Notes: a model not told the origin generated them from the letters alone. 64,000 nt of DNA from Candidatus Glassbacteria bacterium (GCA_963752515.1 CAVVYO010000007.1:112660-176659); one strand, 5' to 3'. Shown: positions 9,553 through 29,308, numbered from the stretch's first letter. Made by a program: numbers and translations.

Positions 9553-9586
9553 CCGCAGGGGCGTCCGGCCGGACGCCCCTACAGCC
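9553..9586. repeat. Module E: perfect palindrome GGGGCGTCCGGCCGGACGCCCCTAC
   Basis: Second copy at 29281-29308; partial at 16145-16165; related hairpin in NYN 5' UTR (5190-5212). Confidence 0.55.
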
Positions 9587-9639
9587 GTTTCCCGAGCTAT
9601 CTGGTTCGAATTACTTAACTTGCGGATGGGTAAGCGCAT

Positions 9640-9880
9640 TGTCTTGGGGAGCGTGGCGGAGTGGTCTTGCGGGCCGTGGCTGGAGGCAAGGGATAGCGGA
9701 GCCGTTGCCGCATAATTTCCATCGTGGCTACTGCTACGAAGCGAGAGAGCCCGGCAGGCCATCGCGTTGCAGCGCCAGGGATGGCGCGAAACGCGGCGAC
9801 CTCAAAAGGAGCGATTTACCTCCCGCAGGCACACCGCTGCCAATTGAAGAGCTGATTGATCCTTCAGCTTCGCGGCCTTG
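9640..9880. repeat. Module D copy 1: ~240-bp conserved non-coding element (candidate structured RNA or transposon end)
   Basis: About 85 percent identical by eye to reverse complement of 28925-29172, e.g. GGCAGGCCATCGCGTTGCAGCGCCAGGGATGGCGCGAAACGCGGCGACC in both; differences include indels not in multiples of three. Confidence 0.6.
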
Positions 9881-10018
9881 GCTTCACAAGACTCTTGCTA
9901 CTTCTGGTCACAGAAGTAGAAAAATCCGAAGGATTTACGGGATTAACAGAGAGTTGGAGATTGCCCTCCAGCCCTTTTTGGTCACAAAAAGAAGAACAGC
10001 CGTCAGGCTTCAGAAATT
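9866..10018. repeat. Module C long copy: hairpin TACTTCTGGTCACAGAAGTA, hairpin AAATCCGAAGGATTT, then GGTCACAAAAAGAAGAACAGCCGTCAGGCTTCAG
   Basis: Homologous to 16395-16535 and, reverse-complemented, to the tandem pair at 28745-28925. Confidence 0.65.
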
Positions 10019-10044
10019 GCCAAGCGATCCGCAGCCTCCGCCCC

Positions 10045-10344
10045 CTACTCCTCTTCCGCCCCCTCCAGCCAGTGCTGCAGCACCTCCACCAGCTTCCGGG
10101 CCTGGTCCGGGCTGGAGATGTTGAACTTGGACTGCTGGCGGTACTCCTCCCGGATCTTGCGGTAACGGCGGATGGTGTACATGTCCTTGCCGTACTCCTG
10201 CTTGCTGTTGTTCCACTGCTGGTAACGGAAGATCACGGTCGCCCAAGCGCCCTTGGTGAGGATCTCCTTGTCCAGCTCCTTGATCAGCTGGACCCCATCC
10301 TCCTCGTAATTGATCGTCAGGTCTTCCACATGGTCCGACATCAC
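10045..10344 (-). CDS. Small hypothetical protein (99 aa, K/E-rich), likely co-transcribed with upstream GH43-like gene
   Basis: AGGAGG 5 nt upstream of ATG 10344; non-repetitive diverse composition; lower GC codons. Confidence 0.5.
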   Translation of the reverse strand: MMSDHVEDLTINYEEDGVQLIKELDKEILTKGAWATVIFRYQQWNNSKQEYGKDMYTIRRYRKIREEYRQQSKFNISSPDQARKLVEVLQHWLEGAEEE

Positions 10345-10384
10345 CCCTCCTGTCTGTTTTTCTTTTCTATGGTTGTCCGGACCA

Positions 10385-11368
10385 TCAACGGCCGGTGTCG
10401 CCCGCCCCGAGCAGGGCTCGCAGCACCGGACGTGGGGCGCGGAACACGGTCCCGTGGCGCGCTCCGGGCGGGAAGCTCACCCGGTCGGAGCGGTCCTCCC
10501 AGTGCTCCAGGTCATCCGAGACCGCCGCGCCGTAACGGCCCTCCTGGTAACAGTCGTAATAGAGGTGCCAGCGGCCGCCGATCCGGATCACGGTCGGGCC
10601 CTCGGCCCAGCAGTCGCCGGTGATCGGCTCCGAGGCCGGCCCGAAGATCCCATCCGGCGCGGCGCCGAACGCCACCCGGATGTTCTTCTGCGGCGGTGTC
10701 AGGCGCTCATCCTTGAAGAACAGCGCCAGCCGGTCCGCGCTCACCCGCACCAGCGTCCCATCGATGCAGTTGAAGCCGGGATCGTAGAACAGCGCGGAGG
10801 GGGTGAGCATCCGGAAATCGCGGGTGGCGGTGAAAAAGAGACGGTGGTTGTAGCCTTCCTCGCTGGCGGTGCTGTCCGGGCAACTGCCCGTGACCGTGCT
10901 GGACCAGTAGAGGTAGAACAGCCCGCGCTCCTGGTCCAGGAACAGTTCCGGGGCCCAGCAGTTGCGGGCCTGGGGCTCGTGCATCATCACCGGCAGCTCG
11001 TGCTGGGCGCTCCAGTGCGCCAGGTCGGTCGAGCTGGCATAGCCGATCGCCCGGTCCTGCCCGGAGGTGGTCCAGACCAGGTGGAACGTCCCATCCGGCC
11101 CGGGCAGGATGCAGGGATCGCGCATCAGGCGCTCATTGCCGACCGTCGGGCGCAGGAACGGACCGCCCGGGACTTCCTCCCAGGCCAGGCCATCCTCGCT
11201 CCAGGCCAGGAACAGCCCCTCCTCGCCATTACCTCGAAAGAACGCGAACATCAGCACGCTGTCGGCGGGCGCAGCGGCTGCGGGGACAGAGCCGCCGCCT
11301 CCGCCGCAGCCGGCCGCAATCGCGATCAGCAGGCCGAGGGCCAGGACCGCCTGGTTCAGGTACCGCAT
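10385..11368 (-). CDS. GH43-superfamily five-bladed beta-propeller glycoside hydrolase, lipoprotein
   Basis: Lipobox LLIAIAAGC after MRYLNQAV; catalytic-base-like RDPCI, WAPELF, catalytic-acid-like EGP motif (GDCWAEGPTV); start chosen at ATG 11366-11368 within longer ORF. Confidence 0.7.
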   Translation of the reverse strand: MRYLNQAVLALGLLIAIAAGCGGGGGSVPAAAAPADSVLMFAFFRGNGEEGLFLAWSEDGLAWEEVPGGPFLRPTVGNERLMRDPCILPGPDGTFHLVWTTSGQDRAIGYASSTDLAHWSAQHELPVMMHEPQARNCWAPELFLDQERGLFYLYWSSTVTGSCPDSTASEEGYNHRLFFTATRDFRMLTPSALFYDPGFNCIDGTLVRVSADRLALFFKDERLTPPQKNIRVAFGAAPDGIFGPASEPITGDCWAEGPTVIRIGGRWHLYYDCYQEGRYGAAVSDDLEHWEDRSDRVSFPPGARHGTVFRAPRPVLRALLGAGDTGR

Positions 11369-11385: not shown

Positions 11386-11811
11386 TCAGTCCCGCGCCTG
11401 GTAGTCCACCACCAGCACCTGGTCCAGGTGCGGCATCAGCGCCTGGGCGAACTGCCGGTGCGCCGGGTGGGGCAGGTAGTTGTCCCGGGCGGCCGCATTG
11501 TCGAACGAGACCAGGAAGCAGTGGGTGTATCCCTGGGCGAGGTTTTCGACACTGACATTGGTGCCCCACTCGAAGTCGCGGATCAGCTCGATGCGCTCGC
11601 GCAGGGCGCGGAAGTCCTGCTCGATCCGGCGGACAGTGTCGGCCGGAGTGCCCGCCTTGAAGCGCAGCAGCACGACATGGCGCAGCGGCTGCCCCTGCTC
11701 GACACTAGCGGGGACCGCCGCGGGCACGGCTTGCGGCGCGGGGGTTTCCGATCCGCAGGAGGCGGAAAGCGCCGCCGCCAGGCCCAGGCTGACCAGGCTC
11801 ATCTTGAGCAT
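11386..11811 (-). CDS. Dabb-family stress-responsive dimeric alpha/beta-barrel protein, lipoprotein
   Basis: Signal/lipobox MLKMSLVSLGLAAALSASC; Dabb pattern HVVLLRFKAGTP...; start ATG 11809-11811. Confidence 0.65.
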   Translation of the reverse strand: MLKMSLVSLGLAAALSASCGSETPAPQAVPAAVPASVEQGQPLRHVVLLRFKAGTPADTVRRIEQDFRALRERIELIRDFEWGTNVSVENLAQGYTHCFLVSFDNAAARDNYLPHPAHRQFAQALMPHLDQVLVVDYQARD

Positions 11812-12175
11812 TGAACTTCCTCCGGGATGATGGAGCGGATTCGAGCCGGGGCGCGCGTGTCCCGGGCGCAACAGGCGGTCAGGGGGGAGCAGGTCGCGGC
11901 TCCCGCGGGACAACAGAAAGCGGGCGATGAACCCGGCCGTCGCGGCGGCCGATGCCCATCCTGCCCGCCAGGTTATTTAAGCAGGCCCGGTCCTGCTGTC
12001 AAGTGGGTTCATGCGGGAGGGAAAATTGTTTTGCTTCCATCGGCAAGGAGTTATATAGTTCAAGCCACCGGCGGCGACAGCGCCGGACAGCCTCCCCGAG
12101 CATGTTCGCAGCGCCGCGCGGTCCCTGTCCCAGCTGGGCGGAACCGCGCTCACCCGACCGCAAGGAGACCGAGGG

Positions 12176-14631
12176 ATGCGCACTCACAGGTTCGAGCGGC
12201 TTTTCGCCGCGGCCCTGCTGGTTTCGGCCGCCACCCTGGCCCTGTCCGGCTGCCGTGGGCCGGAGCCGCGCCGGGCCGGACGACCCGGCCGCGGCATGGG
12301 AGGTGATTGGTCCGGGCGGCGGCGGCTCCACTTTCAACCCGACCTACAACCCCCGGGACCCGCAGAAAATCATCATCCGCTGCGACATGACCGGGACCTA
12401 TGTCACGGTCGATGGCGGCCAGTCCTGGCGGATGCACAATTTCCCGGGCGGGATGCGCACTTTCGCCTGGGACCCCTCCCGCCCGGCGGTGGTTTATGCC
12501 GGCGGGGATGGCCTCTACCGCTCCCGCGATGACGGCCGGAACTGGGAGCTGGTGTTCCCCGCTCCGGACCGGGTCACCGCCACCCGTTACCTGGGCGATC
12601 ATGCCGACTTCGCGATCCTCTCCGCGGACAATTTCCCGGAAGGGGCCTCGGTCACCGCGATCGGAGTCGACCCCCAGGACCCGCGAAGGCTGCTGGTGGG
12701 GCTGACCCGCAGCTCCGGCGGCGGGCCTGGCGCGGGGCTGTTCCTGTCGGAGGATGAGGGCGCGAGCTGGCGCGAGGTGGCCTCGCCGGCCCAGCCGGTG
12801 CTGGCGATTGCCGCCGATCCCCGGCCGGATGGCGAGCTGCTGGTGTTCACCCCGCGCGAGCTGAAGGTTTTCGACCGCTCCGATGGCTCCCTTGCCGACC
12901 GCCCCTTGCCGGAGGGTGTCGAGCGGCTGCAGTCGGTTTCCTGCGGCACGGATGCGGCCGGGAAAGTGTTCCGGGTCTACGCCCTGGCGCCGGTGGGCTG
13001 GGATGGCAAGCGGCACACCGGCGGGCTGTTTATCTCCGATGACGGCGGCCAGAGCTGGCGGCAGGCCACCGCCGGCCTGACCGAGGGCCTCGCGCCCGGG
13101 TCGGGACGATGGGGGGCTGACCCTGGACAACATCGCCTGCGCCGCGCTGGAGAGCGAGGTCGCCTACCTGGTCTGCAGCCGGTTCGATGCCGTGAACCCG
13201 CGGGGGGAGGTCGGCCACTGGTACGGGATCCTCAAGACCGAGGATGCCGGCGCGAGCTGGCGCTGGGTCTACCGCGCCGGGGGCGGCTCTCCCGACTACA
13301 CCATCCGCGATGGCTGGGAGGCCGAGAACCTGCAGGACTCCTGGGTCCGGCAGGCGTTCGCCGGGGAATTCATCCTGGCCCTCACCGCCGGGGTCTACCC
13401 CGCCGATGGCGACATCGCCAGCTTTACCGACTGGTACCGCACGATGCAGACCACCGATGGCGGGGCGACCTGGCGGGAGGTCTACAGCCGCCCCAACCCG
13501 GACAGCACGGTCACCAGCCGCGGGATGGATGTCACCACCTGCTATGGGGTCCATTTCGACCCGTTCGATCCGCAGCACCTGGCGGTGAGCTACACCGACA
13601 TCGGCTACTTCCACTCGTTCGATGGCGGCAAGTCGTGGCTGCGGTCGGTGGAGGGGCTGCCATCGGCCTGGGACAATACCTGCTACTGGATGCAGTTCGA
13701 TCCGGAGGTGGAGGGACGGCTCTGGTCGGTGTGGTCCTCCTGGCACGACATCCCGCGGCTGAAGATGGTGCGCAGCCCGCGCTGGCGGGAGTTCGCGGTG
13801 GGCGGAGTCGGTGTCTCGGACGATGGCGGCCGGACGTGGCGGGTCTCCAGCGATGGGTTGCCGGAGAACGCTCCCACCACCAGCATCGTGCTCGACCCCG
13901 ACACCCCGGCCGGCAACCGCACTCTCTATGTGACGGTCTTCGGCCAGGGCGTGTTCCGCTCCACCGATGACGGCCGCAGCTGGGAGCTCAAGAACCGTGG
14001 GCTGGGCGATCAACCGGCGGCCTGGGAGCTGAGCCTGGCCCGGGATGGCAACCTCTACCTGGTGGTGACCCAGATCATCGACCACCCGGACCCCCAAAAT
14101 CCGCAACTGCTGGATGGCGCGCTCTACCGCTCGGGCGACCGCGGCGAGACCTGGGTGCGGTTGCCCCTGCCCGCCGGCGTGCGTTTCCCGAACTCCCTGA
14201 CTGTCGATCCGGACCAGCCCCAGCGTCTCTATCTTTCCTGCTGGGCCAGCCTGCGCCAGGGGGACTATACCCGGGAGGGCGAGCCGGGCGGGCTGGCGGA
14301 GGCCGCGGGCGGGGCCTGGCTCTCGGAGGATGGCGGCGCCACCTGGCGGAACATCTTCGACCCCGCGGTCTATGTCTACGGCCTGACAGTCGACAGCCGT
14401 CACCCGGGAAGGCTCTACCTCAACACCTTCCAGAACGCCGCCTGGCGCAGCGATGACCGGGGCGAGAGCTGGGGCCGGATCGCCGGCTATGATTTCGAGT
14501 GGGGCCACCGCGTGGTGCTCGATCCCCACGACCCGGAGCAGGTCTATCTCACCACGTTCGGCGGCAGCGTGTTCCACGGCCGCCCGAATCTGCGCCGGGG
14601 AGGCGTCCGCCACCGCTCCGGAGGCGGCCAA
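12176..14631 (+). pseudogene. BNR/Asp-box repeat beta-propeller lipoprotein (GH74/sialidase-like fold) with at least two frameshifts and no in-frame stop before the next gene
   Basis: AAGGAG RBS plus lipoprotein signal MRTHRFERLFAAALLVSAATLALSGC in frame 2; protein-like translation shifts to frame 0 near 12255-12290 (..AAAWEVIGPGGGGSTFNP..DGGQSW) and to frame 1 near 13095-13105 (..LTLDNIACAALESEV..); many S/T-x-D-x-G-x-x-W repeats. Confidence 0.55.
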
Positions 14632-15984
14632 ATGAGCGCTATAAAAATTATGATACTGCTGTTCCTGGCGCTGGCCGGGCTGCCTGACATCGCTCCGGCC
14701 CTTTCCCCGGACCCGGTCCGCCGGGCGGTGGAACAGGAGTACCTGCAGCGCGCGGCGGAGGGAGCGGAGAAGTACCGCCAAGGCCCGGCCGAGCTGGTGC
14801 TGAAGGATCGCGCGGGCCATCCGCTGGCCGGGGCCACTGTCCGGGTGGAGCAGTTGCGGCACGAGTTCCTGTTCGGCAGCATCATTTTCGACCAACTGCG
14901 GGGCCAGGGCGACCCCTCCCGCGAGCAGGCCTACAAGGCGGCTTTCGCGAAGATTTTCAATTTCGCGGTCTTCCCGTTCTACTGGAAAGGCTATGAGCCG
15001 GAGGAGGGCCGGCCGCAGTGGGAGGCGATGACCCCGCTGCTCGAGTGGTGCCGCTCCCGGGGGATCACCACCAAGGGCCATCCGCTGGTCTGGACCGCCC
15101 CCTCGGGTTGGCCGGACTGGCTGGACCGTTACCCGCCGCAGGAGACGGTCGAGCTGCTCCAGCGACGGGTGACCGCGGTCACCGCCGGCTTCCGGGACCG
15201 GATCGAGATCTGGGATGTCTACAACGAGCCGGTCAACACCACGGCCTGGGGCTACCAGGGGCGCGAGTTCTGGGTGGATGACCGCCCGCTGGAGGAGTCC
15301 TCGCCGCTGGTGGAGCAGGCCTTTCATTGGGCCGAGCGCGGCAACCCCTCGGCGCACCTGATCCTCAACGAGTTCTACACCATCACCAAGCCCAACACCC
15401 GCGAGCGCTTCCACGCCCTGGTCAAGGGTCTGCTGGAAAAGGGAACGCCGATCCGCGGGCTGGGAATCCAGGGCCATGAGCCGCGCCAGTACTGGTATGA
15501 CCCGCGGGAGGTCTGGGCGGATTTCGACCGGCTGGGGGAGTTCGGGCTGCCGCTGCACCTGACCGAGGTGACTTTCACCTCTTCCGGCGACACCCTGCGC
15601 GGCTGGCGCGCCGGCGAGGGGGTCTGGGATGAACAGACCCAGGCCGAGTGCATCGAGCATTTCCTGCGGCTGGCGTTCGGACACCCCGCGGTGGCCTCGT
15701 TCAATTTCTGGGGCTTTTCCGACCGGGCGGTCTGGCTGAAAAAGGGCGGGCTGGTGGATGAGAACTACCGTCCCAAGCCCGCCTATGAGCGGGTGGACAG
15801 CCTGGTCAACCGCGAGTGGCACACCAGCCTGGCGGGCCGCACCGATGGGCAGGGCAAGCTTTCCTTCCGCGGCTTCCACGGCGACTACCGGGTGGAGGTC
15901 ACCACCGCCGATGGCCGGGTGCGCCGCTGGGAGCTGCCCCTGCGCAGCGACCGGGAAAACCGCTGGGTGCTGCTGGTGAAATGA
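14632..15984 (+). CDS. GH10 family glycoside hydrolase (beta-1,4-xylanase-like) with signal peptide
   Basis: GGAGG 7 nt upstream of ATG 14632; signal MSAIKIMILLFLALAGLP; GH10 acid/base motif WDVYNEP and nucleophile region LHLTEVTF. Confidence 0.8.
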   Translation: MSAIKIMILLFLALAGLPDIAPALSPDPVRRAVEQEYLQRAAEGAEKYRQGPAELVLKDRAGHPLAGATVRVEQLRHEFLFGSIIFDQLRGQGDPSREQAYKAAFAKIFNFAVFPFYWKGYEPEEGRPQWEAMTPLLEWCRSRGITTKGHPLVWTAPSGWPDWLDRYPPQETVELLQRRVTAVTAGFRDRIEIWDVYNEPVNTTAWGYQGREFWVDDRPLEESSPLVEQAFHWAERGNPSAHLILNEFYTITKPNTRERFHALVKGLLEKGTPIRGLGIQGHEPRQYWYDPREVWADFDRLGEFGLPLHLTEVTFTSSGDTLRGWRAGEGVWDEQTQAECIEHFLRLAFGHPAVASFNFWGFSDRAVWLKKGGLVDENYRPKPAYERVDSLVNREWHTSLAGRTDGQGKLSFRGFHGDYRVEVTTADGRVRRWELPLRSDRENRWVLLVK

Positions 15985-16364: not shown

Positions 16365-16535
16365 GGCGGCATGCGAGTTTTGCGCCGCAAAAACTTTTGG
16401 TCCTTCTGGTCACAGCAGGAGAAAAATCCGCAGGATTTAGGGGATAAAGAACAAGCTGAAGATTTCCCTCCAGCCCTTTTGGGTCACAAAAAGAAGAACA
16501 GCCTGTCAGGCTTCAGGGATTTTCAAGATAGCTGG
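16365..16535. repeat. Module C copy (reverse orientation relative to 9866-10018)
   Basis: GGCGGCATGCGAGTTTTGCGCCGC, CCTTCTGGTCACAGCAGGAG, AAATCCGCAGGATTT, GGGTCACAAAAAGAAGAACAGCCTGTCAGGCTTCAG. Confidence 0.6.
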
Positions 16536-19005: not shown

Positions 19006-19055
19006 CCGCTCGCTCCTCCATGATGGTTGTCGCCTCGCACCTGTTCTGCCGACTG

Positions 19056-21987: not shown

Positions 21988-22920
21988 TCAGAACCTCCGC
22001 AACAGGCCGGCAGCGGTGGTGTCATACGGGCCACCGGTGGTATCGCCCGGGACACTGGTGGTATCACCCGGGACACCGGTGGTATCGCCCGGCACGCCGG
22101 TGGTGTCACCCGGGACACCGGTGGTGTCACCCGGGACACCATCCAGCTCGATCTCGACCATCGTCTCCTCATCCTCGGTCACATCGGCCTCGACCTGGCC
22201 GACCACTGTCCCGGTGGTGTCGCGGACCAGGATCGTGAACGGGCCGGGCGGCAGGAAGCCGAGGGTGAACCCGCCATCCTCGCCGACAAAGGTCGAGGTG
22301 ACGGTGTCGGCGCCGCTGACAGCATAGACCACCGCCCCGCGCGGGGCATCCGGCAGCTCACCGCTGACCTTGCCGACGCTGTCGGCGGTGACCAGGCGCA
22401 AGGTGGGGTCGAAGTCGTAATTATCCGCCCCCTCCTGGGCCTGGACCGAGCGGGCGACATCGAAGTCCACCACCACCTCGGTGGTTTGGTCCTCCTCCAC
22501 CATGAAGCCATCCTGGTTCTCGACCATGGCGGCATTGCCGGGCACTGTCAGCTGATAGCTCTGGGTGTCGGCCGTCACCACGGTCGCCTGCCCGATGCTG
22601 ATCCGGACCGCATCGTAGAAACCGGTGTCGATCTCGGCCTCGGCCAGCAACTCGGACTCGCCGCCGGTGAGCTGCAGCAGGTCCAGGCTCACCGGCTGCT
22701 GGGAGAGGGTCACCCATTGGTCGTTGCGACGCGCCTCCACCCGGGTGATGGTCAGGTTGAACTGATCGAAAGCCGCCGGGGCATCGGCCAGGTAGATCGC
22801 CAGGGTGCCCTGCAGGCCGGTCCCCGGTCCGACCGGGGTCGTGTCATCATCATCGCAGGCCGCCGCCAGCGCGAGCAACGGCCAGGCCAATACTGTCAGA
22901 TACTTGAATGCGACTCGCAA
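21988..22920 (-). CDS. DUF4382-like lipoprotein with C-terminal tandem GVPGDTT heptad repeats
   Basis: AAGGAGG 6 nt upstream of TTG start at 22918-22920; lipobox LLALAAAC; body resembles DUF4382 (TLAIYLADAPAAFDQFNLTITRVEA). Confidence 0.6.
   Translation of the reverse strand: MRVAFKYLTVLAWPLLALAAACDDDDTTPVGPGTGLQGTLAIYLADAPAAFDQFNLTITRVEARRNDQWVTLSQQPVSLDLLQLTGGESELLAEAEIDTGFYDAVRISIGQATVVTADTQSYQLTVPGNAAMVENQDGFMVEEDQTTEVVVDFDVARSVQAQEGADNYDFDPTLRLVTADSVGKVSGELPDAPRGAVVYAVSGADTVTSTFVGEDGGFTLGFLPPGPFTILVRDTTGTVVGQVEADVTEDEETMVEIELDGVPGDTTGVPGDTTGVPGDTTGVPGDTTSVPGDTTGGPYDTTAAGLLRRF
22018..22143 (-). repeat. 21-nt tandem repeat (about 6 units, CCGGTGGTGTCACCCGGGACA-like) encoding GVPGDTT repeats
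   Basis: Direct inspection: near-identical 21-mers in tandem inside the DUF4382-like CDS. Confidence 0.7.
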
Positions 22921-23011
22921 CTTCCGCCTCCTTGATCCTGATTGTTCCGCACCTGGCCCCCGGCTTCCGTCCGGACCATGCCGGGGACTCTCCCCGCAAA
23001 CCCGCCCGAAC

Positions 23012-23051
23012 CTGTACCGATCTGGCACAACCCTGTGCCGGATCGGTACAG
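23012..23051. promoter_or_regulatory. 18-bp inverted repeat CTGTACCGATCTGGCACA-ACCC-TGTGCCGGATCGGTACAG upstream of DUF4382-like gene; contains TGGCAC-N5-TGTGC resembling a sigma-54 -24/-12 element
   Basis: Near-perfect palindrome (1 mismatch) about 95 nt upstream of TTG start; GG-to-GC spacing is 11 rather than the canonical 10. Confidence 0.35.
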
Positions 23052-23406
23052 GCGCGATGACCACCCTGTTCGGGCGGCCGGTGGGCGGGGCCGGAGGGAG
23101 GGGGCCTCCCTGCCCGCACTCCGACCGTGCGGCTCTCAGGTCTGCAAGGCGAATGCCACGCGGGGGGTGTTAGTGTGCTAACCTGCAAATTTACAAAGAA
23201 TTAGATGTTTCTGGCGGCGGGTGGTCCGGGGCGGGCGCGGCTTTGCGGGAAAAATGATAAAATGCTGAAAAAAAGGTATCAGCTTTTTAAAATATTGCTT
23301 ATCAAAGACCTGAAGCGATCGGGCGGCGGTAAAGCCGAGCTCAAGGAACCGGTTCCCGGGGCCGCGCGAAACATCTGATAGTCTTCACAGCGTTGTCAAA
23401 TCGGGA

Positions 23407-25644
23407 TCAAAGCTCGTGGGCCCCAATGTCGGGGGCCATGCCCCGGTAGTCATCGTTGAAGCCGCGCAGGAGTTGGCCCCGGTCACGGCAGGGGCTTTCC
23501 GGCCGTAAGCTGAAATCGCCCGTTGCCGCGCTGCCCGCCAGGGGGTAGCTTGTCAGCAGGTCCTCGGTGAAGCCTTTCCAGGGGATCGCCCCCAGGCCCG
23601 GGGTGCTGCGGAAAGCCGGGTCGGCGTACAGCCCGTGGGCTTCCTGCCCGGTGGCCCGCCGGAATTCCTCCAGTGTGAAGTAAGTCGCCCCGTTCCACTC
23701 GAACTTGCGCGGTTCCAGCCCCGGAGCGTGCCACCAGCAGTCGTGGTCCAGCCGGTTGTTGCCATCATAGCCGGTGCGCACCGCGCGGTCGGCGCCGATC
23801 AGCGCATTGTTGGCGAACCACTTGTTGCGGCAGATCGGTCCCCCGGAAGGTTCGCCGGTCAGCCCCACCGCCGCCATCCCATTGCCGGTGTTCAGCCCAT
23901 AGCCGGAGTTGTGGTAGACCAGGGTCCAGCCCTCGCTCCAACGGCTGCCGACATTGAATTTGAAGAACATGTTGAGGAAAGTGGCCTCGTTGCGGGTGAC
24001 ATAGACCGGCCCGCGCTCGACCGGGGCCAGCGAGATCGCCACCAGCGCGTTGCGGATGCGGTTGCCGTGGGCCCGCAGGTTGACCCCGCCGCCATCCAGC
24101 TCCAGGGCGTCATCGCCGATGTCGTGGATGAGGTTGAACATCACATCCGTGTCGCGGTGCAGGGCGAGCTGGTCGACCTGCTGCCAGCTGTCCACGACGA
24201 TCCCGTCGAACCAGCCGCTGAGCGTGTTGCGGCAGTAGGAGCCGCCCCGGCCGGTGGCATCGGCGGCGATCCCCTGGCGGGGGTACTCGCCGGCCTTGAT
24301 CGTGCTCCAGGGGATCTCCAGCAGGCCATCCTCGCTGATCTCGTTCTCCCAGACCGCATTGCCATGGGTGGCGGCGTGCTTGAGGAACACCCCCCAGGTG
24401 CAGTGGCGGATGGTGTTGCCGTAGACCACGCAGCCCTCGGCGCCTTCCGAGAGCCGCACCGCGGCCGATCCATAGTGCTGCAGCTCGAAACCGCGCACGA
24501 CCACATTGGCGCAGCCCGACAGGAAAAAGCCCCAGGCATGGCGCGCCAGGCGCCAGGCGGACAGGCCGGGCGCCGCTCCGCCGGCGGCGCGGACATACAG
24601 TCGGCCGCCGCCGCTGTCCCAGTACCAGCCGCGCGGGGCCGGGGGGTCATTGGCGGCCAGTGTCGCCAGGCTCTCGTAGCGGTGCACCCGCTTGCCATCC
24701 TGGGAGACGTAGCCATAGCCGGGGAGCTGGTAGCCGCCTCCCGGCGCGCGGTAGTAGATGCCGCTGCCATAGCTGTTCCAGCCGCTGTCCCCGATCGGGA
24801 ACTCCAGCGAGCTGTCCAGCAGCACCCGCTCGCCCGGGGCGGCGGCGAACACCACCGGAGCCTCGGGCTCGCCGCGCGGCTGCAGCAGCAGGTCGCCCTC
24901 GGCGTAAGTGCCGGCGTGGACCCAGACGATGTCCCCGGCCCGGGCCAGGCCCGCGGCGTGGCCGATGCTGCGCCAGGGGTGGAGGGCATCGCCGGGAGCG
25001 CTGTCGCTGCCGACAGGGGAGACATGGAAGCTGCGGCCGCCGGCGGGCTCGAGGACCATGGTCCGGGTGGCGGTGGTCCCTTGCGTTTCGACTGTCGCGC
25101 CGGAGGCCGGATCGTAATGCAGCGCCCGCACCTCCAGGCGCTCGCCCTGCTCCAGGGGGAAAATGCCGGCCCAGGCCAGCGCGCGGGCGCTGTCGACCAC
25201 CAGGTCCGGGCCGTTGCGCCAGACCGTCTCGCCCGCGCGGCGCCAGAGCAGGCGGAACGCGCCGCCGGCCGGGAGCGGGCCGGAAAAGCCCAGCTCGGCC
25301 CCGACCGCGCTCCAGGTGGGATACAGTTCCAGCGAGCCGAGGGCGACCGGGTTCCGGCCCAGCGGGGTGAGGTCACCGCGGGCCGCTCGCAGCAGCAGGA
25401 CCAGGGCATCGCTCACCGCGGCGCGGCCATCGCCATCCAGGTCCAGGCGGGGGTCGCCCGGGGCGGCGGCGCGCTCGCGCAGCAGGTAGAGGGCATCCCG
25501 CGGGTCGGCGCGGCCATCGCGGTTGAGGTCCTCGCGCCACTCTTGGGCGGAGAGCGGGGCGGCGAGGAGCAGAAGCAGGAGGATGGGATCAGCGAGCCTG
25601 GCAAGATTGCACGTCACAGATGCGTCCTTCTTGACAGGTAGCAA
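23407..25644 (-). CDS. Right-handed parallel beta-helix protein (pectate-lyase-like fold, probable polysaccharide lyase/hydrolase) with N-terminal dockerin-like Ca-binding repeat pair
   Basis: Signal peptide; DLNRDGRADPRDALYLL and DLDGDGRAAVSDALVLL dockerin-type repeats; later beta-helix repeats with NxxHDIGDDALELDGGG. Confidence 0.7.
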   Translation of the reverse strand: MLPVKKDASVTCNLARLADPILLLLLLAAPLSAQEWREDLNRDGRADPRDALYLLRERAAAPGDPRLDLDGDGRAAVSDALVLLLRAARGDLTPLGRNPVALGSLELYPTWSAVGAELGFSGPLPAGGAFRLLWRRAGETVWRNGPDLVVDSARALAWAGIFPLEQGERLEVRALHYDPASGATVETQGTTATRTMVLEPAGGRSFHVSPVGSDSAPGDALHPWRSIGHAAGLARAGDIVWVHAGTYAEGDLLLQPRGEPEAPVVFAAAPGERVLLDSSLEFPIGDSGWNSYGSGIYYRAPGGGYQLPGYGYVSQDGKRVHRYESLATLAANDPPAPRGWYWDSGGGRLYVRAAGGAAPGLSAWRLARHAWGFFLSGCANVVVRGFELQHYGSAAVRLSEGAEGCVVYGNTIRHCTWGVFLKHAATHGNAVWENEISEDGLLEIPWSTIKAGEYPRQGIAADATGRGGSYCRNTLSGWFDGIVVDSWQQVDQLALHRDTDVMFNLIHDIGDDALELDGGGVNLRAHGNRIRNALVAISLAPVERGPVYVTRNEATFLNMFFKFNVGSRWSEGWTLVYHNSGYGLNTGNGMAAVGLTGEPSGGPICRNKWFANNALIGADRAVRTGYDGNNRLDHDCWWHAPGLEPRKFEWNGATYFTLEEFRRATGQEAHGLYADPAFRSTPGLGAIPWKGFTEDLLTSYPLAGSAATGDFSLRPESPCRDRGQLLRGFNDDYRGMAPDIGAHEL

Positions 25645-25883: not shown

Positions 25884-26036
25884 TGACACCCCCCGGCAGC
25901 TGAAGCTGCCACCCCCCTCCAGGGGGGAGCTTGCTTGCTTCGCCCGTGGAGTTGCTGCAACCGGTCGGGTGGCAGGCTGTCAAGTCCCCCCTGGAGGGGG
26001 GATGGTCCCGATTCTATCGGGACCAGGGGGGTGTGA
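25884..26036. repeat. Module B copy 3
   Basis: TGACACCCCCCGGCAGCTGAAGCTGCCACCCCCCTCCAGGGGGGAG ... CCCCCCTGGAGGGGGG..GGGACCAGGGGGGTGTGA. Confidence 0.65.
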
Positions 26037-26171: not shown

Positions 26172-27476
26172 TTACAGTTCCTTGATATAGATGTTGCCGA
26201 ACTCGATCGGGTCGCCGTGGTGCTGCAGGGCGATCGGCCCGGTGGCGGCCATCCCCGGCAACTGGGCGTTGTCGAGCACCTTCTGGCCGTTGAGCAGGAC
26301 GGTCACCCGGTCGCCGACCGCGGTGATCTCGAAACGGTTCCACTCGCCGATCGGCTTGTCGGCGTTGAGGATCGGGGTGACCCCGGCCCGCACCTCGGGC
26401 GGCATGGTCTCATCCATCCGGTAGCCGTAGACCTCGCCCGAGCCGACCGGCCAGTTCCAGATGTTGAATTGGTTCTTGGAGTCGCCGCGGATGTAGATCC
26501 CGCTGTCGCCGGCATCGTTGACCAGGGCCTTGATCTCGTTGCCCTGCTCGTCCTTGGCATGGGAGCCGTCCGGCAGCACCACCGGCACGCTGTCGACCTT
26601 GATCGCCTCGGGCGACAGCCGCCAGTCGACAATCATGGTGAAATCGCCGTAGTCTTTTTCGGACCAGAGGTTCTTGTCCTCGGCCGTGCTGCCGCCATCG
26701 TAGCTGATCTTCCAGTCATCGGCCTTCCAGTGGCCCTCATGGCCGGGGTCCTGCTTCCAGCCGCGCAGGTCGATGCCGTTGTAGAGGGCGACAAAGCCGC
26801 GGTCCTCGAGCGCGGTCACCGCCGCCGGCGGATTGGTGGCGGGCAGCTCGTTGATCCGGATGTTGCGGAAGTGGACCTCGCTGCCCTCGGACTCCAGGCA
26901 GATGTATCCCTTGCGCGGATTGGCGTTGAACACGCGGTTGACATGGGTCCCGTTGACCCACAGGTCGATCATCCCATTCCGGCACTCCACCCGGTACTGG
27001 TTCCACTGGCCGGTGGGCTTCATTGCATCGCTGGTGGGCAGGGAGCGCATCCAGCCCTGGGGGTGCGGCTGGAACGGCACCATCGTCGCGCCCTGGATGC
27101 CGAAGATGTCCCCGGCGTTGCCATCCATGATCTGGATCTCGACCGAGCGGGTGAACGGCTGGCCGGTCACCGGCAGGTCATCGGAGTGGACGAACAGTCC
27201 GGCGTTGCCCCCGGCCTGCATGTGGCGCCACTCCAGCTCCAGCACGTAGTTCTCGTACTGGCGGTCGGTGCGCAGCACGCCGATCGGCTTGCCGGTGCAG
27301 ACGATGATCTTGTCCTTGACCGTCCAGGTTTCCGGGGCGCAGTTGACATTGACCCAGCCGGTCAGGTCCTGGCCGTTGAACAGCGGCTTGAAGTCCCCGG
27401 CCGCGTTGGAGCGCGAGCAGGTGACCACCAGGTAGAGCGCCAGCACCGACAGGCAGAGCAGCAGGATTTTTTTCAT
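26172..27476 (-). CDS. Tandem DUF1080 (3-keto-disaccharide hydrolase-like, concanavalin-like fold) secreted protein
   Basis: AAGGAGAAGG RBS; signal MKKILLLCLSVLALYLVV; two repeats ending HFRNIRINEL and EFGNIYIKEL characteristic of DUF1080. Confidence 0.75.
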   Translation of the reverse strand: MKKILLLCLSVLALYLVVTCSRSNAAGDFKPLFNGQDLTGWVNVNCAPETWTVKDKIIVCTGKPIGVLRTDRQYENYVLELEWRHMQAGGNAGLFVHSDDLPVTGQPFTRSVEIQIMDGNAGDIFGIQGATMVPFQPHPQGWMRSLPTSDAMKPTGQWNQYRVECRNGMIDLWVNGTHVNRVFNANPRKGYICLESEGSEVHFRNIRINELPATNPPAAVTALEDRGFVALYNGIDLRGWKQDPGHEGHWKADDWKISYDGGSTAEDKNLWSEKDYGDFTMIVDWRLSPEAIKVDSVPVVLPDGSHAKDEQGNEIKALVNDAGDSGIYIRGDSKNQFNIWNWPVGSGEVYGYRMDETMPPEVRAGVTPILNADKPIGEWNRFEITAVGDRVTVLLNGQKVLDNAQLPGMAATGPIALQHHGDPIEFGNIYIKEL

Positions 27477-27751
27477 CGAGCCTTCTCCTTGGGGAAGAAT
27501 GGGGGAGAGCGGCGCCGGAAAGCCCCCGGGCGCTGCGGGACATGAAGGCGGAAGACAGCATCTTTTTTCAATATAATCAGCCGGCACGGGCGGCGACAGC
27601 CTTTTGGGCCGAGCGCACCCCTAACGGCTTGTGGAACGGGCCGCCGGGGAGTTATCTTCAAGGAGCCGCCGCGCGATGGGCCTTTTCCCTTGCGGCGGCG
27701 CGGGACCCTACCGTACGGGAGGACCGGATGGCCGAGCAAAGGAGGAACCGC

Positions 27752-28696
27752 ATGTCGCGAAGGGATTTCACCCGTCTGGCCGTCGCGGGAGCGGCGGCGC
27801 TGGCCGCCACCGGCGCGCTGGAGGAGAGCCTGGCCCTGGAAAGCCCCTCGCGGCGGCGATTGCGCCTGGGGGGGCCGGTCTTCGGCCGGCCCGACAGCCC
27901 GGAAAGCTGGGTGGCGGCCCTGCAAGAGGCGGGTTACCGCGCCGCCTATTGCCCGCTGGAGGCGACAGCCGATGACACGACCGTGCGGGCCTGGCGCGCG
28001 GCCGCCGACCGGGCCGACCTCGTGATCGCCGAGGTCGGGGCCTGGAGCAATCCGATCAGCCCGGACGAGGCCGAACGCCAGAAAGCCCTGCAGCTCTGCC
28101 GGGACCAGCTCGCCCTGGCCGAGCGCATCGGCGCCCGCTGCTGCGTCAACATCAGCGGCACCCGCCTGAGCGGCTTCAGCGGCCCCCACCCGGACAACCT
28201 CACCCGCGAGACGTTCGAGATGATTGTCGAAACCACCCGCGCGATCATCGATGCGGTCCGGCCCACCCGCACGTTCTATGCCCTGGAGACCATGCCCTAC
28301 GCTTACCCGGACTCGGCCGACTGCTACCTGGAGCTGATCCGGGCGATCGACCGTCCGGCGATGGCCGCCCACCTCGACCCGGTGAACCTGGTGTCGAGTC
28401 CCCAGCGCTATTTCCGCAACGGCGAGCTGATCCGGGAGTGCTTCGCCAAGCTGGGGCCGTACCTCAAAAGCTGCCACGCCAAGGATACCCTGCTGCGGCG
28501 GGAGCTGACCACCCATCTCGATGAGGTCCAGCCGGGGCTGGGCACCCTCGATTACGCGGTCTACCTGACCGAGCTGGCGAACCTTCCCGATCCGCCGCCG
28601 CTGATGCTGGAGCACCTCAAGACCGCGGAGGAGTACCGGGCCGGGGCGGAGCATATCCGCGGGGTGGCGCGGAAGGTGGGATTATCGTTCGAGTGA
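27752..28696 (+). CDS. Sugar phosphate isomerase/epimerase (xylose-isomerase-like TIM barrel) with Tat signal
   Basis: AAGGAGG 6 nt upstream of ATG 27752; MSRRDFTRLAVAGAAALAATGA Tat motif; TIM-barrel AP-endonuclease-2-like pattern. Confidence 0.75.
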   Translation: MSRRDFTRLAVAGAAALAATGALEESLALESPSRRRLRLGGPVFGRPDSPESWVAALQEAGYRAAYCPLEATADDTTVRAWRAAADRADLVIAEVGAWSNPISPDEAERQKALQLCRDQLALAERIGARCCVNISGTRLSGFSGPHPDNLTRETFEMIVETTRAIIDAVRPTRTFYALETMPYAYPDSADCYLELIRAIDRPAMAAHLDPVNLVSSPQRYFRNGELIRECFAKLGPYLKSCHAKDTLLRRELTTHLDEVQPGLGTLDYAVYLTELANLPDPPPLMLEHLKTAEEYRAGAEHIRGVARKVGLSFE

Positions 28697-28744
28697 GGCC
28701 GGCGGGCGGCCCGGGGTCGGGAGAGTCCCGGTTTCTTTGATATT

Positions 28745-28925
28745 CCCGTAAATCCGGCGGATTTTTCTCCTGCTGTGACCAAGTAGCAAGAGTCTTTAAC
28801 AGCAGGGCCGCGAAGGGGGAGGGAAAGCTCCAGCTTGTTCTTTATCCCGTAAATCCTTCGGATTTTTCTACTTCTGTGACCAGAAGTAGCAAGAGTCTTT
28901 AAAGGCCAAGGCCGCGAAGCTGAAA
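28745..28925. repeat. Two tandem module C units (about 100-bp period) in reverse orientation
   Basis: Each unit: CCCGTAAATCCnnnGGATTTTTCT + (C/A)CT(G/T)CTGTGACCA(A)GTAGCAAGAGTCTTTAA; loops differ (GGC vs TTCG) while stems are conserved. Confidence 0.65.
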
Positions 28926-29172
28926 TAGCAGTAAGGTTTTCAATCACCGGCGGTGTGCCTGCGGTAGTCAATCGCTCCTTCAGCGGTCGCCGCGTTTCGC
29001 GCCATCCCTGGCGCTGCAACGCCATGGCCTGCCGACCTCAAGCAGCTTCTTCTGTGCCGCGATGGAAATTGCGCGGCAATGACACCGCTTCCCTTTGCCT
29101 CCAGCCGCGGCCCGCAAGACCGCCCTATCCCGGAATCTTTCGTAGGGGCCGGCCCCCGTGCCGGCCCTGAAA
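28925..29172. repeat. Module D copy 2 (reverse complement of 9640-9880)
   Basis: Reverse complement contains GGTCTTGCGGGCCGCGGCTGGAGGCAAAGGGAAGCGG...GGCAGGCCATGGCGTTGCAGCGCCAGGGATGGCGCGAAACGCGGCGACC. Confidence 0.6.
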
Positions 29173-29280
29173 AACACAACCCCCTGTTTCCCCCTTTGCT
29201 AAGGGGGATCAACAGCACTGCCGCCCGACCGGTGTCATCAACACCAGGCCCGAGTGTCGGCAGCCGGCCCGGAGTTTGCT

Positions 29281-29308
29281 GTAGCGTCCGGCCGGACGCC
29301 CCTACCCT
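29281..29308. repeat. Module E copy 2 (GCGTCCGGCCGGACGCCCCTAC)
   Basis: Identical palindrome core to 9553-9586. Confidence 0.55.

What the first reader, a model, noticed from the sequence alone, without database searches (positions are those of the whole stretch)
9553..29308. About 450-bp composite E-D-C element present twice in inverted orientation, bracketing an 18.7-kb CAZyme and transporter segment
The left copy (9553-10018, + orientation) and right copy (28745-29308, reverse orientation) share the same module order. That order is the palindrome E (GCGTCCGGCCGGACGCCCCTAC), then a roughly 240-bp block D at about 85 percent identity, then the two-hairpin module C. The C ends face inward. 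Length differences inside D are not multiples of three, so D is not a protein remnant. The enclosed segment holds GH43-like, Dabb, BNR, GH10, CE4, MFS, a large GH-like lipoprotein, DUF4382, the dockerin beta-helix protein, DUF1080 and a sugar-P isomerase. The geometry is that of a composite transposon or an invertible/recombinogenic island. Alternatively D is a two-copy structured ncRNA flanked by hairpin modules.
Basis: seen in the sequence. Interest (0 to 1): 0.75.

Follow-up and report, generated by a model that had tools for sequence, protein, structure and literature searches.

The report
Two inverted copies of a non-coding repeat
The inverted repeat is real, but it is two diverged copies of a lineage-specific non-coding intergenic repeat lying behind two oppositely oriented genes, not the ends of a transposon; its 180-nt core may be a small structured RNA.

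Summary
Window 9663-9976 (+) and 29121-28813 (-) align over about 315 nt at 82-83% identity (blastn E 2.5e-87). A 30-60 nt GTAG-tagged palindrome (E) lies 77 nt upstream of one copy and 160 nt upstream of the other.

The transposon or invertible-island reading is not supported. No ORF in the window has a transposase, integrase or invertase domain. The arms have no terminal inverted repeats and no target-site duplication. GC content and skew of the enclosed 18.7 kb match the flanks.

Modules C and E also occur elsewhere, inside and outside the segment. The window's other long spacers carry further repeated hairpin families (A, B). In all three full C copies, C abuts the stop codon of a gene in one fixed orientation. 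That rule alone explains why the two D-C units are inverted.

D (about 204 nt, core 179 nt) is non-coding and occurs exactly twice in the window. The 47 substitutions between the copies preserve a multi-helix fold on one strand only (E→D→C; local permutation p about 0.015; the other strand is at null). No promoter, Rfam family or homolog was found. The organism is an isolated relative of Candidatus Glassbacteria.

Best reading: a modular REP/BIME-style intergenic repeat whose core may be a small RNA.

The parts
9551..9586 (.). E, left copy: GTAG-tagged GC-rich palindrome. The minus strand reads GTAGGGGCGTCCGGCCGGACGCCCC.
   Evidence: I1, 20-nt arms, 90% complementary
9663..9866 (+). D, left copy: non-coding block of about 204 nt. 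The predicted folded core is 9660-9838: closing helix P1, long hairpin P2, variable hairpin, GGGA-loop hairpin 9764-9794 and a small hairpin. A further hairpin follows at 9844-9867.
9867..9952 (+). C-a, left copy: TTCGCGGCC..AAGACTCTTGCTACTTCTGGTCACAGAAGTAGAAAAATCCGAAGGATTTACGGGAT. It has a 9-bp hairpin with a GGTCA loop, then an A-run and a 6-bp hairpin. On the minus strand this reads as a hairpin followed by UUUUUCU.
9960..10024 (+). C-b, left copy: a second, related hairpin subunit (CTTTTTGGTCACAAAAAG..AGCCGTCAGGCT). It ends 20 nt from the stop codon of the 99-aa gene.
10045..10344 (-). Gene of unknown function (99 aa from the first start codon, 143 codons stop to stop). Its stop codon abuts the left C module.
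27542..28696 (+). Sugar-phosphate isomerase/epimerase (xylose-isomerase-like TIM barrel). The source annotation has 314 aa. Its stop codon lies 48 nt from the right C module, and its own terminator-like hairpin is at 28711-28735.
28744..28815 (-). Second C-a unit of the right copy, in tandem with the first (101-nt spacing). It has a 2-nt deletion in the large hairpin.
   Evidence: (D18)
28845..28919 (-). C-a, right copy. It shares a 56-nt identical run with the left C-a.
28920..29121 (-). D, right copy. The folded core is 29124-28949.
29281..29305 (.). E, right copy: GTAGGGGCGTCCGGCCGGACGCTAC. It is separated from D by about 160 nt that hold three further hairpins, including a second GTAG-tagged palindrome at 29142-29167.
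16373..16527 (+). Third full C unit (C-a + C-b) without D, inside the 'bracketed' segment. It is 84-85% identical to the left C and faces the 3' end of the CE4 gene (stop at 16727).
   Evidence: (D10, I3, I12)
9279..9334 (-). Partial C-like unit (large hairpin only) in the opposite orientation, at the far end of the same spacer, upstream of the sulfatase gene.
   Evidence: (I24)
31158..31229 (-). Partial C-like unit outside the segment, between the heparinase-like and decarboxylase genes.
   Evidence: (I8, I18)

Best explanation
The two arms are two old, diverged copies (about 82% identical) of a lineage-specific, non-coding, modular intergenic repeat.

Each copy is a mosaic of three parts:
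- a GTAG-tagged REP-like palindrome (E);
- a structured core of about 200 nt (D);
- a double-hairpin module (C).

C and E are dispersed repeats, and further hairpin families (A, B) fill this genome's other long spacers in the manner of REP/BIME or BOX-type mosaics.

Every full C unit lies just past the stop codon of a gene, oriented so that the gene's transcript reads a small hairpin followed by a U-tract. I infer that C serves as a terminator or 3'-end stabiliser for that gene. The two D-C units sit behind genes on opposite strands (the 99-aa gene on minus, the TIM-barrel gene on plus), so the units are inverted relative to each other. The 'bracketing' of 18.7 kb follows from that rule and is not a transposon architecture.

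D is kept, or was spread, as a single-stranded nucleic acid of the E→D→C strand, because its substitutions preserve a fold on that strand only. Whether that molecule is an RNA or ssDNA is not shown.

Shown: the repeat itself, its modularity, its non-coding nature, the absence of mobility genes and transposon ends, the orientation rule, and the strand-specific fold conservation.
Inferred: the terminator role of C, the mode of spread, and any function of D.
For: - Repeat and its limits.
- D occurs only twice in the window: nhmmer and a covariance model.
- Additional C copies at 16373-16527, 9279-9334 and 31158-31229. CTGGTCACAGNAG occurs 6 times against 0.27 expected.
- E-type GTAG palindromes at 9582, 29305, 29142, 16141 and 29391. 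This fits the GTAG-tagged REP superfamily described in PMC3733652.
- Other repeated hairpin families in the same spacers: D5, D6, D16, D17, and the hairpin hits.
- Orientation rule, 3 of 3 full C copies. Distances from the stop codon are 20, 48 and 200 nt (gene map; sequences).
- The reverse complement of C-a folds into a 17-bp hairpin, -18.6 kcal/mol, z -3.7.
- No mobility genes. No TIR. No compositional break.
- D is non-coding.
- Fold conservation. Consensus energy is -72.95 on the forward strand and -52.35 on the reverse. There are 5 double and 5 G·U/G-C changes and no broken pair. Re-placing the same 47 substitutions gives 0/400 under a uniform null. A local ±8 nt null gives z -2.3 and p about 0.015 on the forward strand, against z about 0 on the reverse.
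Against: - Only 64 kb of this genome can be read, so a genome-wide copy number for D, C and E is unknown. 'Dispersed repeat' rests on 2 copies of D, 3 full plus 2 partial copies of C, and 2-5 copies of E.
- No RAYT or other mobilising enzyme is seen.
- D has no palindromic or TIR structure like a typical REP or MITE.
- The orientation rule has only three cases (chance 1/8).
- The consensus terminator scan did not flag C-a on the gene strand, because its small stem has fewer than 3 G-C pairs.
- The 98%-identical core block and the strand-specific fold suggest selection on D itself, which favours the small-RNA rival.
Confidence: 0.5

Rival explanations
1. D is a true small structured RNA gene present as two paralogs. 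It is transcribed E→D→C, convergently with the neighbouring carbohydrate-metabolism gene. Its 3' extension through C is antisense to the C-bearing 3' UTRs of several genes. It would then act as a regulator of this polysaccharide-utilisation region, loosely as PUL-associated antisense RNAs do in Bacteroides.
For: - Strand-specific preservation of a 52-58-pair multi-helix fold.
- Single-sequence folding z-scores of -3.0 and -2.5.
- A 38-nt perfectly conserved block next to a 32%-identical variable hairpin, a pattern typical of structured RNAs.
- No coding potential.
- PUL-associated cis-antisense RNAs exist in the FCB relative Bacteroides (PMC7366714).
Against: - No sigma-70-like promoter (at least 8/12 matches) lies within 180 nt upstream of either copy, and no sigma-54 site is there.
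- Homology starts exactly at D, so no shared promoter exists.
- No terminator is conserved in that direction.
- No Rfam family reaches threshold.
- No homolog was found in genome, metagenome, viral, plasmid or phage collections with the patterns used, nor in 116 kb of relatives' loci.
- Two sequences give little covariation power: 17/500 shuffles match the observed score.
Confidence: 0.27
2. The pair is a passive recombination substrate. RecA-dependent crossover between the inverted copies occasionally inverts the 18.7-kb segment, so the population may be polymorphic for its orientation, with no dedicated machinery.
For: The copies are inverted and share perfect runs of 56 and 38 nt. From my own knowledge, these exceed the roughly 25-30 nt minimal processing segment for homologous recombination known from E. 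coli. GC skew over 10-29 kb averages near 0, against about +0.05 to the left.
Against: Overall identity is only 82%, which strongly depresses homologous recombination. The skew difference is within the noise of the window. There are no reads and no close relative to compare: the best homologs are 61-66% identical at the protein level. The distant homologous loci show no informative synteny.
Confidence: 0.1
3. The structure is a composite transposon, or a programmed invertible or mobilisable island, whose ends are the E-D-C elements.
For: Only the geometry supports this: inverted copies of the same module order with the C ends facing inward.
Against: - No transposase, integrase or invertase is present in the arms, the segment or the rest of the window.
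- There are no terminal inverted repeats.
- There is no target-site duplication outside D or outside E.
- The segment's GC content and gene content (CAZymes) continue into both flanks.
- Modules C and E also occur inside and outside the segment.
- The arms are 18% diverged.
Confidence: 0.04
4. D is a distant member of the lysM-Actino class of candidate cis-regulatory RNAs (RF03090), that is, a riboswitch-like leader.
For: A permissive Rfam scan aligns left D (9650-9815, +) end to end with RF03090 at 24.3 bits. The E-value is 0.0011 for a 0.9-kb search. The alignment includes the GGGA-loop hairpin and a 3' AAGGAGC. The overall architecture, an outer helix enclosing three hairpins, is similar.
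Against: - The family's gathering score is 153.8 bits.
- The right copy scores 13.9 bits, E 0.84.
- In a whole-window search the left hit has E 0.077 and ranks among plain-hairpin noise.
- No gene follows D in that direction. The next gene is convergent.
- The motif is described only in 5' UTRs of lysM genes in one phylum (PMC5737381).
- A pattern covering the positions shared by D and the family consensus found nothing in metagenome or viral contigs.
Confidence: 0.02

Closest known systems
REP / BIME mosaics (GTAG-tagged repetitive extragenic palindromes) and REPINs
   Same: - Short GC-rich imperfect palindromes with a GTAG tag (E and at least three other hairpins).
- Clustered in mosaics with other hairpin modules in long spacers, mostly just past gene 3' ends.
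- Lineage-specific.
- Module B has the two-inverted-hairpin layout of a REPIN.
(Definitions: PMC3733652, PMC3337134; BIME organisation from my own knowledge.)
   Different: - D, at about 200 nt, is far longer than a REP.
- D is not palindromic and has a branched fold.
- No RAYT gene is visible.
- Genome-wide copy number is unknown.
Modular intergenic repeats such as pneumococcal BOX (boxA-boxB-boxC), ERIC/IRU and Correia elements (own knowledge)
   Same: - Non-coding units of 100-450 nt built from modules that also occur separately or in variable number.
- Located in intergenic spacers and transcribed with neighbouring genes.
- Strong predicted secondary structure.
   Different: Those families have tens to hundreds of copies and, for Correia and ERIC, terminal inverted repeats. 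Here only two D copies are visible and no TIR or TSD was found.
PUL-associated cis-antisense small RNAs of Bacteroides (DonS family)
   Same: A non-coding element on the strand opposite to carbohydrate-utilisation genes in a bacterium of the FCB group, possibly acting through antisense pairing (PMC7366714).
   Different: DonS-type RNAs are 78-128 nt and are encoded divergently at the 5' end of susC homologs. D is about 180-290 nt and convergent with the 3' ends of non-susC genes. It has no detectable promoter and no sequence relation to DonS.
lysM-Actino RNA motif (Rfam RF03090)
   Same: An outer helix enclosing three hairpins; a hairpin with a GGGA loop flanked by GCGUU and CGA; a 3' AAGGAGC.
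   Different: - The score is 24 bits against a 153.8-bit threshold.
- The match is not significant at window scale.
- The phylum differs.
- There is no downstream gene and no lysM gene.
Composite transposons (Tn5/Tn10 type)
   Same: Two inverted copies of one sequence flank a block of accessory genes.
   Different: - The arms carry no transposase.
- The arms have no TIR and no TSD.
- The arms are 18% diverged.
- The arms are built from modules found elsewhere in the window.

Membership tests
Composite transposon | Each arm is an insertion sequence encoding a transposase | tested here: not met
   The arms are about 315 nt. No Pfam hit at E <= 1 for ORFs spanning the arms. No transposase domain anywhere in the window.
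Composite transposon | Terminal inverted repeats at the arm ends and a target-site duplication outside the unit | tested here: not met
   No inverted repeat bounds D-C or E-D-C. The flanks outside D (..GGCGGAGT versus GCCCTATCC..) and outside E do not match.
Composite transposon | The unit is present or absent as a block in related genomes | not testable with these tools
   The closest homologs are 61-66% identical proteins. The source genome is not in the searchable DNA collections.
Site-specific invertible segment (Hin/Gin/Fim/shufflon type) | A recombinase/invertase gene within or next to the segment | tested here: not met
   No recombinase, integrase or resolvase domain in any ORF of the 64-kb window.
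Site-specific invertible segment (Hin/Gin/Fim/shufflon type) | Both orientations present in the population | not testable with these tools
   No reads or alternative assemblies are available.
REP (GTAG/CGTC-tagged palindromes) - applied to module E | A 20-40 bp imperfect palindrome with a GTAG or CGTC tetranucleotide at one end | tested here: met
   GTAGGGGCGTCCGGCCGGACGC(CCC) at 9582 (-) and 29305 (-). Similar GTAG hairpins at 29142, 16141 and 29391. Definition from PMC3733652.
REP (GTAG/CGTC-tagged palindromes) - applied to module E | High copy number in the genome and an associated RAYT (TnpA-REP) gene | not testable with these tools
   Only 64 kb of the genome can be read. It holds 2 clear E copies and about 3 related hairpins, and no Y1 transposase.
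REP / REPIN - applied to module D | The element is a short palindrome, or a pair of inverted REPs forming one long hairpin | tested here: not met
   D is about 204 nt and non-palindromic. Its predicted fold is branched, with 4 branch points in model R1.
MITE | Terminal inverted repeats plus a target-site duplication | tested here: not met
   and the flanks read. The only end-like feature is an inverted partial C hairpin at 9279-9315 versus 9889-9925 in the left spacer (84%). It has no counterpart at the right copy.
lysM-Actino RNA (RF03090) | Covariance-model score at or above the curated gathering score (153.8 bits) | tested here: not met
   24.3 bits (left) and 13.9 bits (right). No hit at gathering threshold. 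E 0.077 at window scale.
lysM-Actino RNA (RF03090) | Located in the 5' UTR of a lysM-domain gene | tested here: not met
   The next gene in D's direction is convergent in both copies (gene map). Family context from PMC5737381.
Structured small RNA gene (generic) | A secondary structure conserved through compensatory change on one strand | tested here: inconclusive
   Two sequences only. There are 5 double and 5 one-sided pair-keeping changes and 0 broken pairs of 58. Permutation p is about 0.015 on the forward strand and 0.3-0.5 on the reverse. The shuffle control gives 17/500.
Structured small RNA gene (generic) | Own promoter and terminator, and a detectable transcript | tested here: not met
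   No sigma-70-like or sigma-54-like site upstream of D. A terminator-like hairpin in D's direction occurs only after the left C-a (9953-9972). Transcript presence is not testable here.
Intrinsic terminator - applied to module C on the strand of the adjacent gene | A stable hairpin followed by a U-tract shortly after a stop codon | tested here: inconclusive
   AAAUCC-UUC-GGAUUU + UUUUCU lies 20-200 nt after three stop codons, and a 17-bp extended hairpin folds at -18.6 kcal/mol. The consensus scan did not flag it because the small stem has 2 G-C pairs. Two of the three genes also have another hairpin of their own.

The most novel reading that the evidence does not exclude
D is the founding pair of a new class of branched small RNA of about 180 nt: a closing helix, a long hairpin, a variable hairpin and a GGGA-loop hairpin. 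It would be confined to an uncultivated lineage related to Candidatus Glassbacteria and encoded convergently with carbohydrate-utilisation genes. It would be fused to a repeated hairpin module (C) that is also carried, in antisense, in the 3' UTRs of several neighbouring genes. One RNA could then pair with a whole set of CAZyme transcripts.
Probability: 0.2. Interest if true: 0.55.

Novelty: new member of a known kind. Interest (0 to 1): 0.3.

Why it matters
For genome annotation, a striking inverted-repeat geometry around a CAZyme block should not be read as a mobile or invertible island here. The block is ordinary chromosome. The repeats belong to a rich, lineage-specific set of intergenic hairpin modules placed by a gene-end orientation rule.

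If the less likely reading is right, D would be a new structured RNA tied to polysaccharide-utilisation genes in a candidate lineage with no cultured member and no known regulatory RNAs. Such a case would give an entry point to RNA-based control of glycan use outside Bacteroides. With two copies in one assembly, the case cannot yet be made.

Tried and rejected
**Rfam**
- The gathering-threshold scan of the whole window found nothing.
- Permissive scans gave only sub-threshold hits. lysM-Actino was rejected as chance.

**Collection scans**
- Genome contigs with GCGTTGCANNNNNNGGGANNNNNNGAAACGCGG returned one chance coding hit in Larkinella.
- Metagenome contigs with a broader D-core pattern and with a C pattern returned 0.
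- Viral contigs with three patterns returned 0.
- blastn in distant mode against plasmids and phages found no match.

**Reaching the source genome**
- Exact-protein look-ups of window proteins, and of the 100%-identical P0001, are not on record.
- The P0001 cluster carries no name or accession.

**Relatives**
- Loci around RimO and TIM-barrel homologs, 116 kb in total, hold no D or C by nhmmer. The covariance model, run on L002 and L005-L008, also finds none.
- Their synteny is too loose to test inversion or insertion.

**Coding hypotheses for D**
- The six-frame translations share no frame.
- There are no Pfam hits.
- No TnpB-like C-terminal motifs are visible. I had considered an IS200/IS605 omega-RNA or PATE origin. 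It was dropped because there is no tnpB remnant, no matching left-end and right-end hairpins, and no Rfam IS605-orfB hit.

**Promoter searches upstream of D**
- No sigma-70 site and no sigma-54 site.

**C as a promoter**
- TTGCTA-16-TAGAAA is only 8/12 and lacks the -10 T.
- All three full copies point into gene 3' ends.
- The decarboxylase gene has its own AT-rich TATAAT region downstream of the partial C copy.
- On these grounds the promoter idea was rejected.

**Other**
- There are no tRNA or tmRNA genes, so this is not a tRNA-targeted island.

Full report

Yes. A blastn comparison of the window with itself aligns 9663-9976 (+) with 29121-28813 (-). The match spans 315 columns at 83.2% identity, E 2.5e-87. 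The repeat finder reports the same match in three ungapped pieces (I1, I5, I6). A global alignment gives 253/308 identical positions and six gap columns.

The palindrome E (GGCGTCCGGCCGGACGCC) is exact at 9560-9577 and has one mismatch at 29283-29300. Allowing up to 3 mismatches, the pattern finds 3 matches in the window against 0.43 expected. E, D and C are in the same order in both copies, and the C ends face the enclosed segment.

Two details need correcting:
- The strongly similar part consists of D proper (9663-9866, 79% identical) plus one C subunit, C-a (9867-9952, 90%, with a 56-nt perfect run).
- The inner ends differ. The left copy continues with C-b (9960-10024). The right copy continues with a second C-a in tandem (28815-28744).

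E is only loosely attached. It lies 77 nt from D on the left and about 160 nt on the right, where three more hairpins are intercalated.

**2. Surroundings**

GC3 frame analysis and Pfam give the following gene map:

| Coordinates | Strand | Gene |
|---|---|---|
| 7256-8914 | - | sulfatase |
| 10045-10344 | - | 99-aa ORF, unknown function |
| 10385-~11400 | - | GH43-like |
| 11386-11913 | - | Dabb |
| 11952-15984 | + | BNR/sortilin + GH10, in two frames |
| 16727-17533 | - | CE4 |
| 17549-19128 | - | MFS sugar transporter, in two frames |
| 19168-21867 | - | GH67N-like |
| 21988-23064 | - | DUF4382 |
| 23407-25644 | - | beta-helix protein |
| 26172-27587 | - | DUF1080 |
| 27542-28696 | + | TIM-barrel sugar-phosphate isomerase |
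| 29541-30935 | - | PLP decarboxylase |
| 31593-33584 | - | heparinase-like |

The rest of the window carries more glycan-utilisation and sensor genes and no mobility gene. These include GH38, GH123, a TonB-dependent receptor, a Reg_prop/Y_Y_Y kinase and an NtrC-type activator.

GC content and GC skew of 10-29 kb do not stand out from the flanks. The enclosed block is therefore ordinary chromosome in gene content and in composition.

RimO (60816-62207) is 61-65% identical to proteins named Candidatus Glassbacteria, then drops to 50% or less. The TIM-barrel protein has one 100% match, on a 318-kb NCBI/ENA contig, and the next best match is 66%. The organism is thus an isolated relative of that group.

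**3. The modules are dispersed repeats**

C is not confined to the boundaries.
- A third full C (C-a + C-b, 84-85% identical to the left one) lies at 16373-16527, inside the segment and without D.
- Partial copies lie at 9334-9279 (-) and 31229-31158 (-).
- The invariant loop motif CTGGTCACAGNAG occurs six times against 0.27 expected.
- Stems differ between copies by compensating changes, for example U-A to G-C in the 9315 copy (read). The hairpin therefore matters more than its sequence.

E reads GTAG + GC-rich palindrome on one strand (GTAGGGGCGTCCGGCCGGACGC). Similar GTAG-tagged hairpins lie at 29142, 16141 and 29391. This matches the definition of GTAG-tagged REPs (PMC3733652).

The same spacers hold two further families (D5, D6, D16, D17):
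- Family A: perfect 50-nt hairpins at 4206, 15992, 19059, 29480, 31528 and 53806, each shortly after a stop codon.
- Family B: REPIN-like double hairpins at 9371-9516, 16190-16331 and 25886-26034.

The long spacers of this genome (650-1400 nt) are mosaics of hairpin modules, in the style of BIME or BOX elements (comparison from my own knowledge).

**4. Why the two copies are inverted**

In all three full copies, C lies just beyond a stop codon:
- 20 nt after the 99-aa gene;
- 48 nt after the TIM-barrel gene;
- 200 nt after CE4.

In each case it is oriented so that the gene's own strand reads the reverse complement of C. That strand shows a 6-bp hairpin AAAUCC-NNN-GGAUUU followed by UUUUCU. These merge into a 17-bp extended hairpin (-18.6 kcal/mol, z -3.7).

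The 99-aa gene is on the minus strand and the TIM-barrel gene on the plus strand, so the two D-C units are necessarily inverted relative to each other. Three cases out of three has a chance probability of 1/8. The rule is therefore suggestive and not proven. It does remove the need for any transposon-like explanation of the geometry.

**5. Tests of the transposon or invertible-island reading**

- The arms have no ORF with a family match.
- No inverted repeat bounds D-C or E-D-C.
- The sequences just outside D and outside E do not form a direct duplication.
- No recombinase is present in 64 kb.

Passive homologous recombination between the copies cannot be excluded, because perfect runs of 56 and 38 nt exist. 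At 82% overall identity it would be rare, and nothing here shows that it happens.

**6. What is D?**

D is non-coding. The three frames of the two copies diverge at the 2-nt and 1-nt gaps, and no ORF is shared. Pfam finds nothing at E <= 1.

D occurs exactly twice in the window, by nhmmer and by a covariance model of its core (R1; 212.9 and 206.1 bits, next hit 17 bits).

Its conservation is mosaic: 85%, then a 22-nt stretch at 32%, then a 49-nt block at 98%, then 75%.

RNAalifold predicts the following on the E→D→C strand (-72.95 kcal/mol):
- a closing helix of 13 pairs;
- a long hairpin of about 19 pairs;
- a variable hairpin;
- an 11-pair hairpin with a GGGA-containing loop;
- a small hairpin;
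- a further 6-pair hairpin downstream.

The opposite strand gives -52.35 kcal/mol. All 58 pairs are kept in both copies. Five are kept through changes on both sides, and five through G-C/G·U changes that would be A·C mismatches on the other strand.

RNAalifold chooses pairs that fit, so I ran two permutation tests.
- Uniform null: the same 47 substitutions were re-placed at random on one copy. The forward strand gives -56.4 ± 4.7 (0 of 400 reach the observed value). The reverse strand gives -46 ± 5 (p about 0.1).
- Local null: each substitution was moved by at most 8 nt, which keeps the regional conservation. The forward strand gives z -2.2 to -2.3 (p 0.013-0.017). The reverse strand gives z -0.4 to 0.

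This is modest but strand-specific evidence that D is constrained as a single-stranded fold of the E→D→C strand.

**7. What speaks against a plain small-RNA gene**

- Homology begins exactly at D, so there is no shared promoter.
- No sigma-70-like site (at least 8/12) lies within 180 nt upstream of either copy, and no sigma-54 site is there.
- In D's direction, only the left copy has a terminator-like hairpin after C-a (9953-9972).

Rfam gives nothing at curated thresholds. A permissive scan aligns left D with lysM-Actino (RF03090) at 24.3 bits, against a gathering score of 153.8. The right copy scores 13.9 bits. At window scale the left hit has E 0.077 and sits among hairpin noise. That motif is also defined by its position before lysM genes (PMC5737381), and no gene follows D. 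I treat the resemblance as chance.

**8. Search for relatives**

- Pattern scans of the species-representative genomes returned one chance hit in a Larkinella coding region.
- Scans of JGI metagenomes returned nothing, as did scans of viral contigs.
- blastn against plasmids and phages found nothing.
- The source contig could not be reached by exact-protein look-up.
- In 116 kb of loci around RimO and TIM-barrel homologs from the nearest available organisms, nhmmer found no D or C; the covariance model, run on L002 and L005-L008, also found none.

D, C and E are therefore lineage-specific as far as can be seen. This fits selfish or structural repeats, and equally a young small-RNA family. It leaves only two sequences for all structural inference.

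**9. Verdict**

The repeat is real. The transposon or invertible-island interpretation is not supported.

- Best explanation (0.5): two diverged copies of a modular, non-coding intergenic repeat. Their relative inversion follows from the orientation of the genes they trail.
- Main rival (about 0.27): D itself is a functional small RNA read E→D→C, convergent with carbohydrate genes. This would be loosely analogous to the PUL-associated antisense RNAs of Bacteroides (PMC7366714), but differs in size, position and sequence.
- Passive recombination substrate: about 0.1.
- True mobile or invertible unit: about 0.04.
- lysM-Actino membership: about 0.02.

Interest is moderate to low. The finding is a new member of a known kind of feature, in a poorly sampled lineage, with a possible but unproven new RNA inside it.

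Noticed in passing
window 4206-4255, 15992-16041, 19059-19108, 29480-29529, 31528-31577, 53806-53855: Family A: six copies of a near-perfect palindrome of about 50 nt (GGGGGAGAGCGGAAACCTTTT..AAAAGGTTTCCGCTCTCCCCC). Each lies about 8-115 nt after a stop codon, and several lie next to a conserved box AAAAGTTTGGGAAAG(T)G. It is probably the main repeated terminator or REP-like family of this genome. These hairpins account for the spurious miRNA hits in permissive Rfam scans.
   Followed up: partly
window 9371-9516, 16190-16331, 25886-26034: Family B: a REPIN-like unit of two inverted CCCCCCTNNAGGGGGG hairpins plus a GGCCCCGC..GCGGGGCC hairpin, present in three copies. Its last hairpin gives a sub-threshold whalefall-1 RNA hit (25985-26030, 25.8 bits against a gathering score of 37).
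   Followed up: partly
window 17549-19128; 11952-15984; 49796-51011; 51139-53722: Four genes are split into two overlapping reading frames: the MFS sugar transporter, BNR/sortilin+GH10, a FadL-like outer-membrane protein, and GH123 N-terminal + catalytic domains. Either the assembly carries single-base indel errors (for example from long reads) or several genes are pseudogenes. Small indels in non-coding alignments should be treated with caution.
   Followed up: no
window 23143-23158 (-): TGGCATTCGCCTTGCA is a good sigma-54 -24/-12 match in the spacer upstream of the DUF4382 gene. The window also encodes an NtrC-type sigma-54 activator (40696-42165) next to a Reg_prop/Y_Y_Y sensor kinase (36844-40695). 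The number of such matches in the window equals the chance expectation (10 against 10.0).
   Followed up: no
window 9641-9685: The first ~23 nt of the left D (GTCTTGCGGGCCGTGGCTGGAGG) are preceded by a diverged tandem copy of themselves (GTCTTGGGGAGCGTGGCGGAGTG). The right copy has no such duplication. It may be a slippage or insertion scar at the boundary of the repeat.
   Followed up: no
window 9277-9240 (-) and 31172-31117 (-): Both partial C-like copies are followed at once by ATG and a similar short reading frame: MITKELAAPPGI.. and MTIKEIAAQLGIFRRQGG*. The sequence resembles the N-terminus of a helix-turn-helix protein. It may be a remnant of a gene that once followed the C hairpin, which would hint that the C family derives from the end of a larger element.
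   Followed up: partly
window 22014-22140: Six tandem copies of a 21-nt unit (CGGTGGTATCACCCGGGACAC, 85% matches) lie inside the DUF4382 gene. This is a 7-residue repeat in the protein.
   Followed up: no
window 5052-6129, 42166-43170, 48412-49795: Three further spacers of 1.0-1.4 kb show no gene by GC3 analysis. The first has only 50% GC against 67% for the window. They were not examined for RNAs or small genes.
   Followed up: no
L006 5317-10945; L007 892-5035: In distant relatives, the homologous TIM-barrel isomerase gene also lies near heparinase II/III-like and GH38 genes, though in a different order and orientation from the window. The gene neighbourhood is loosely conserved, but no repeat modules are present there.
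   Followed up: partly
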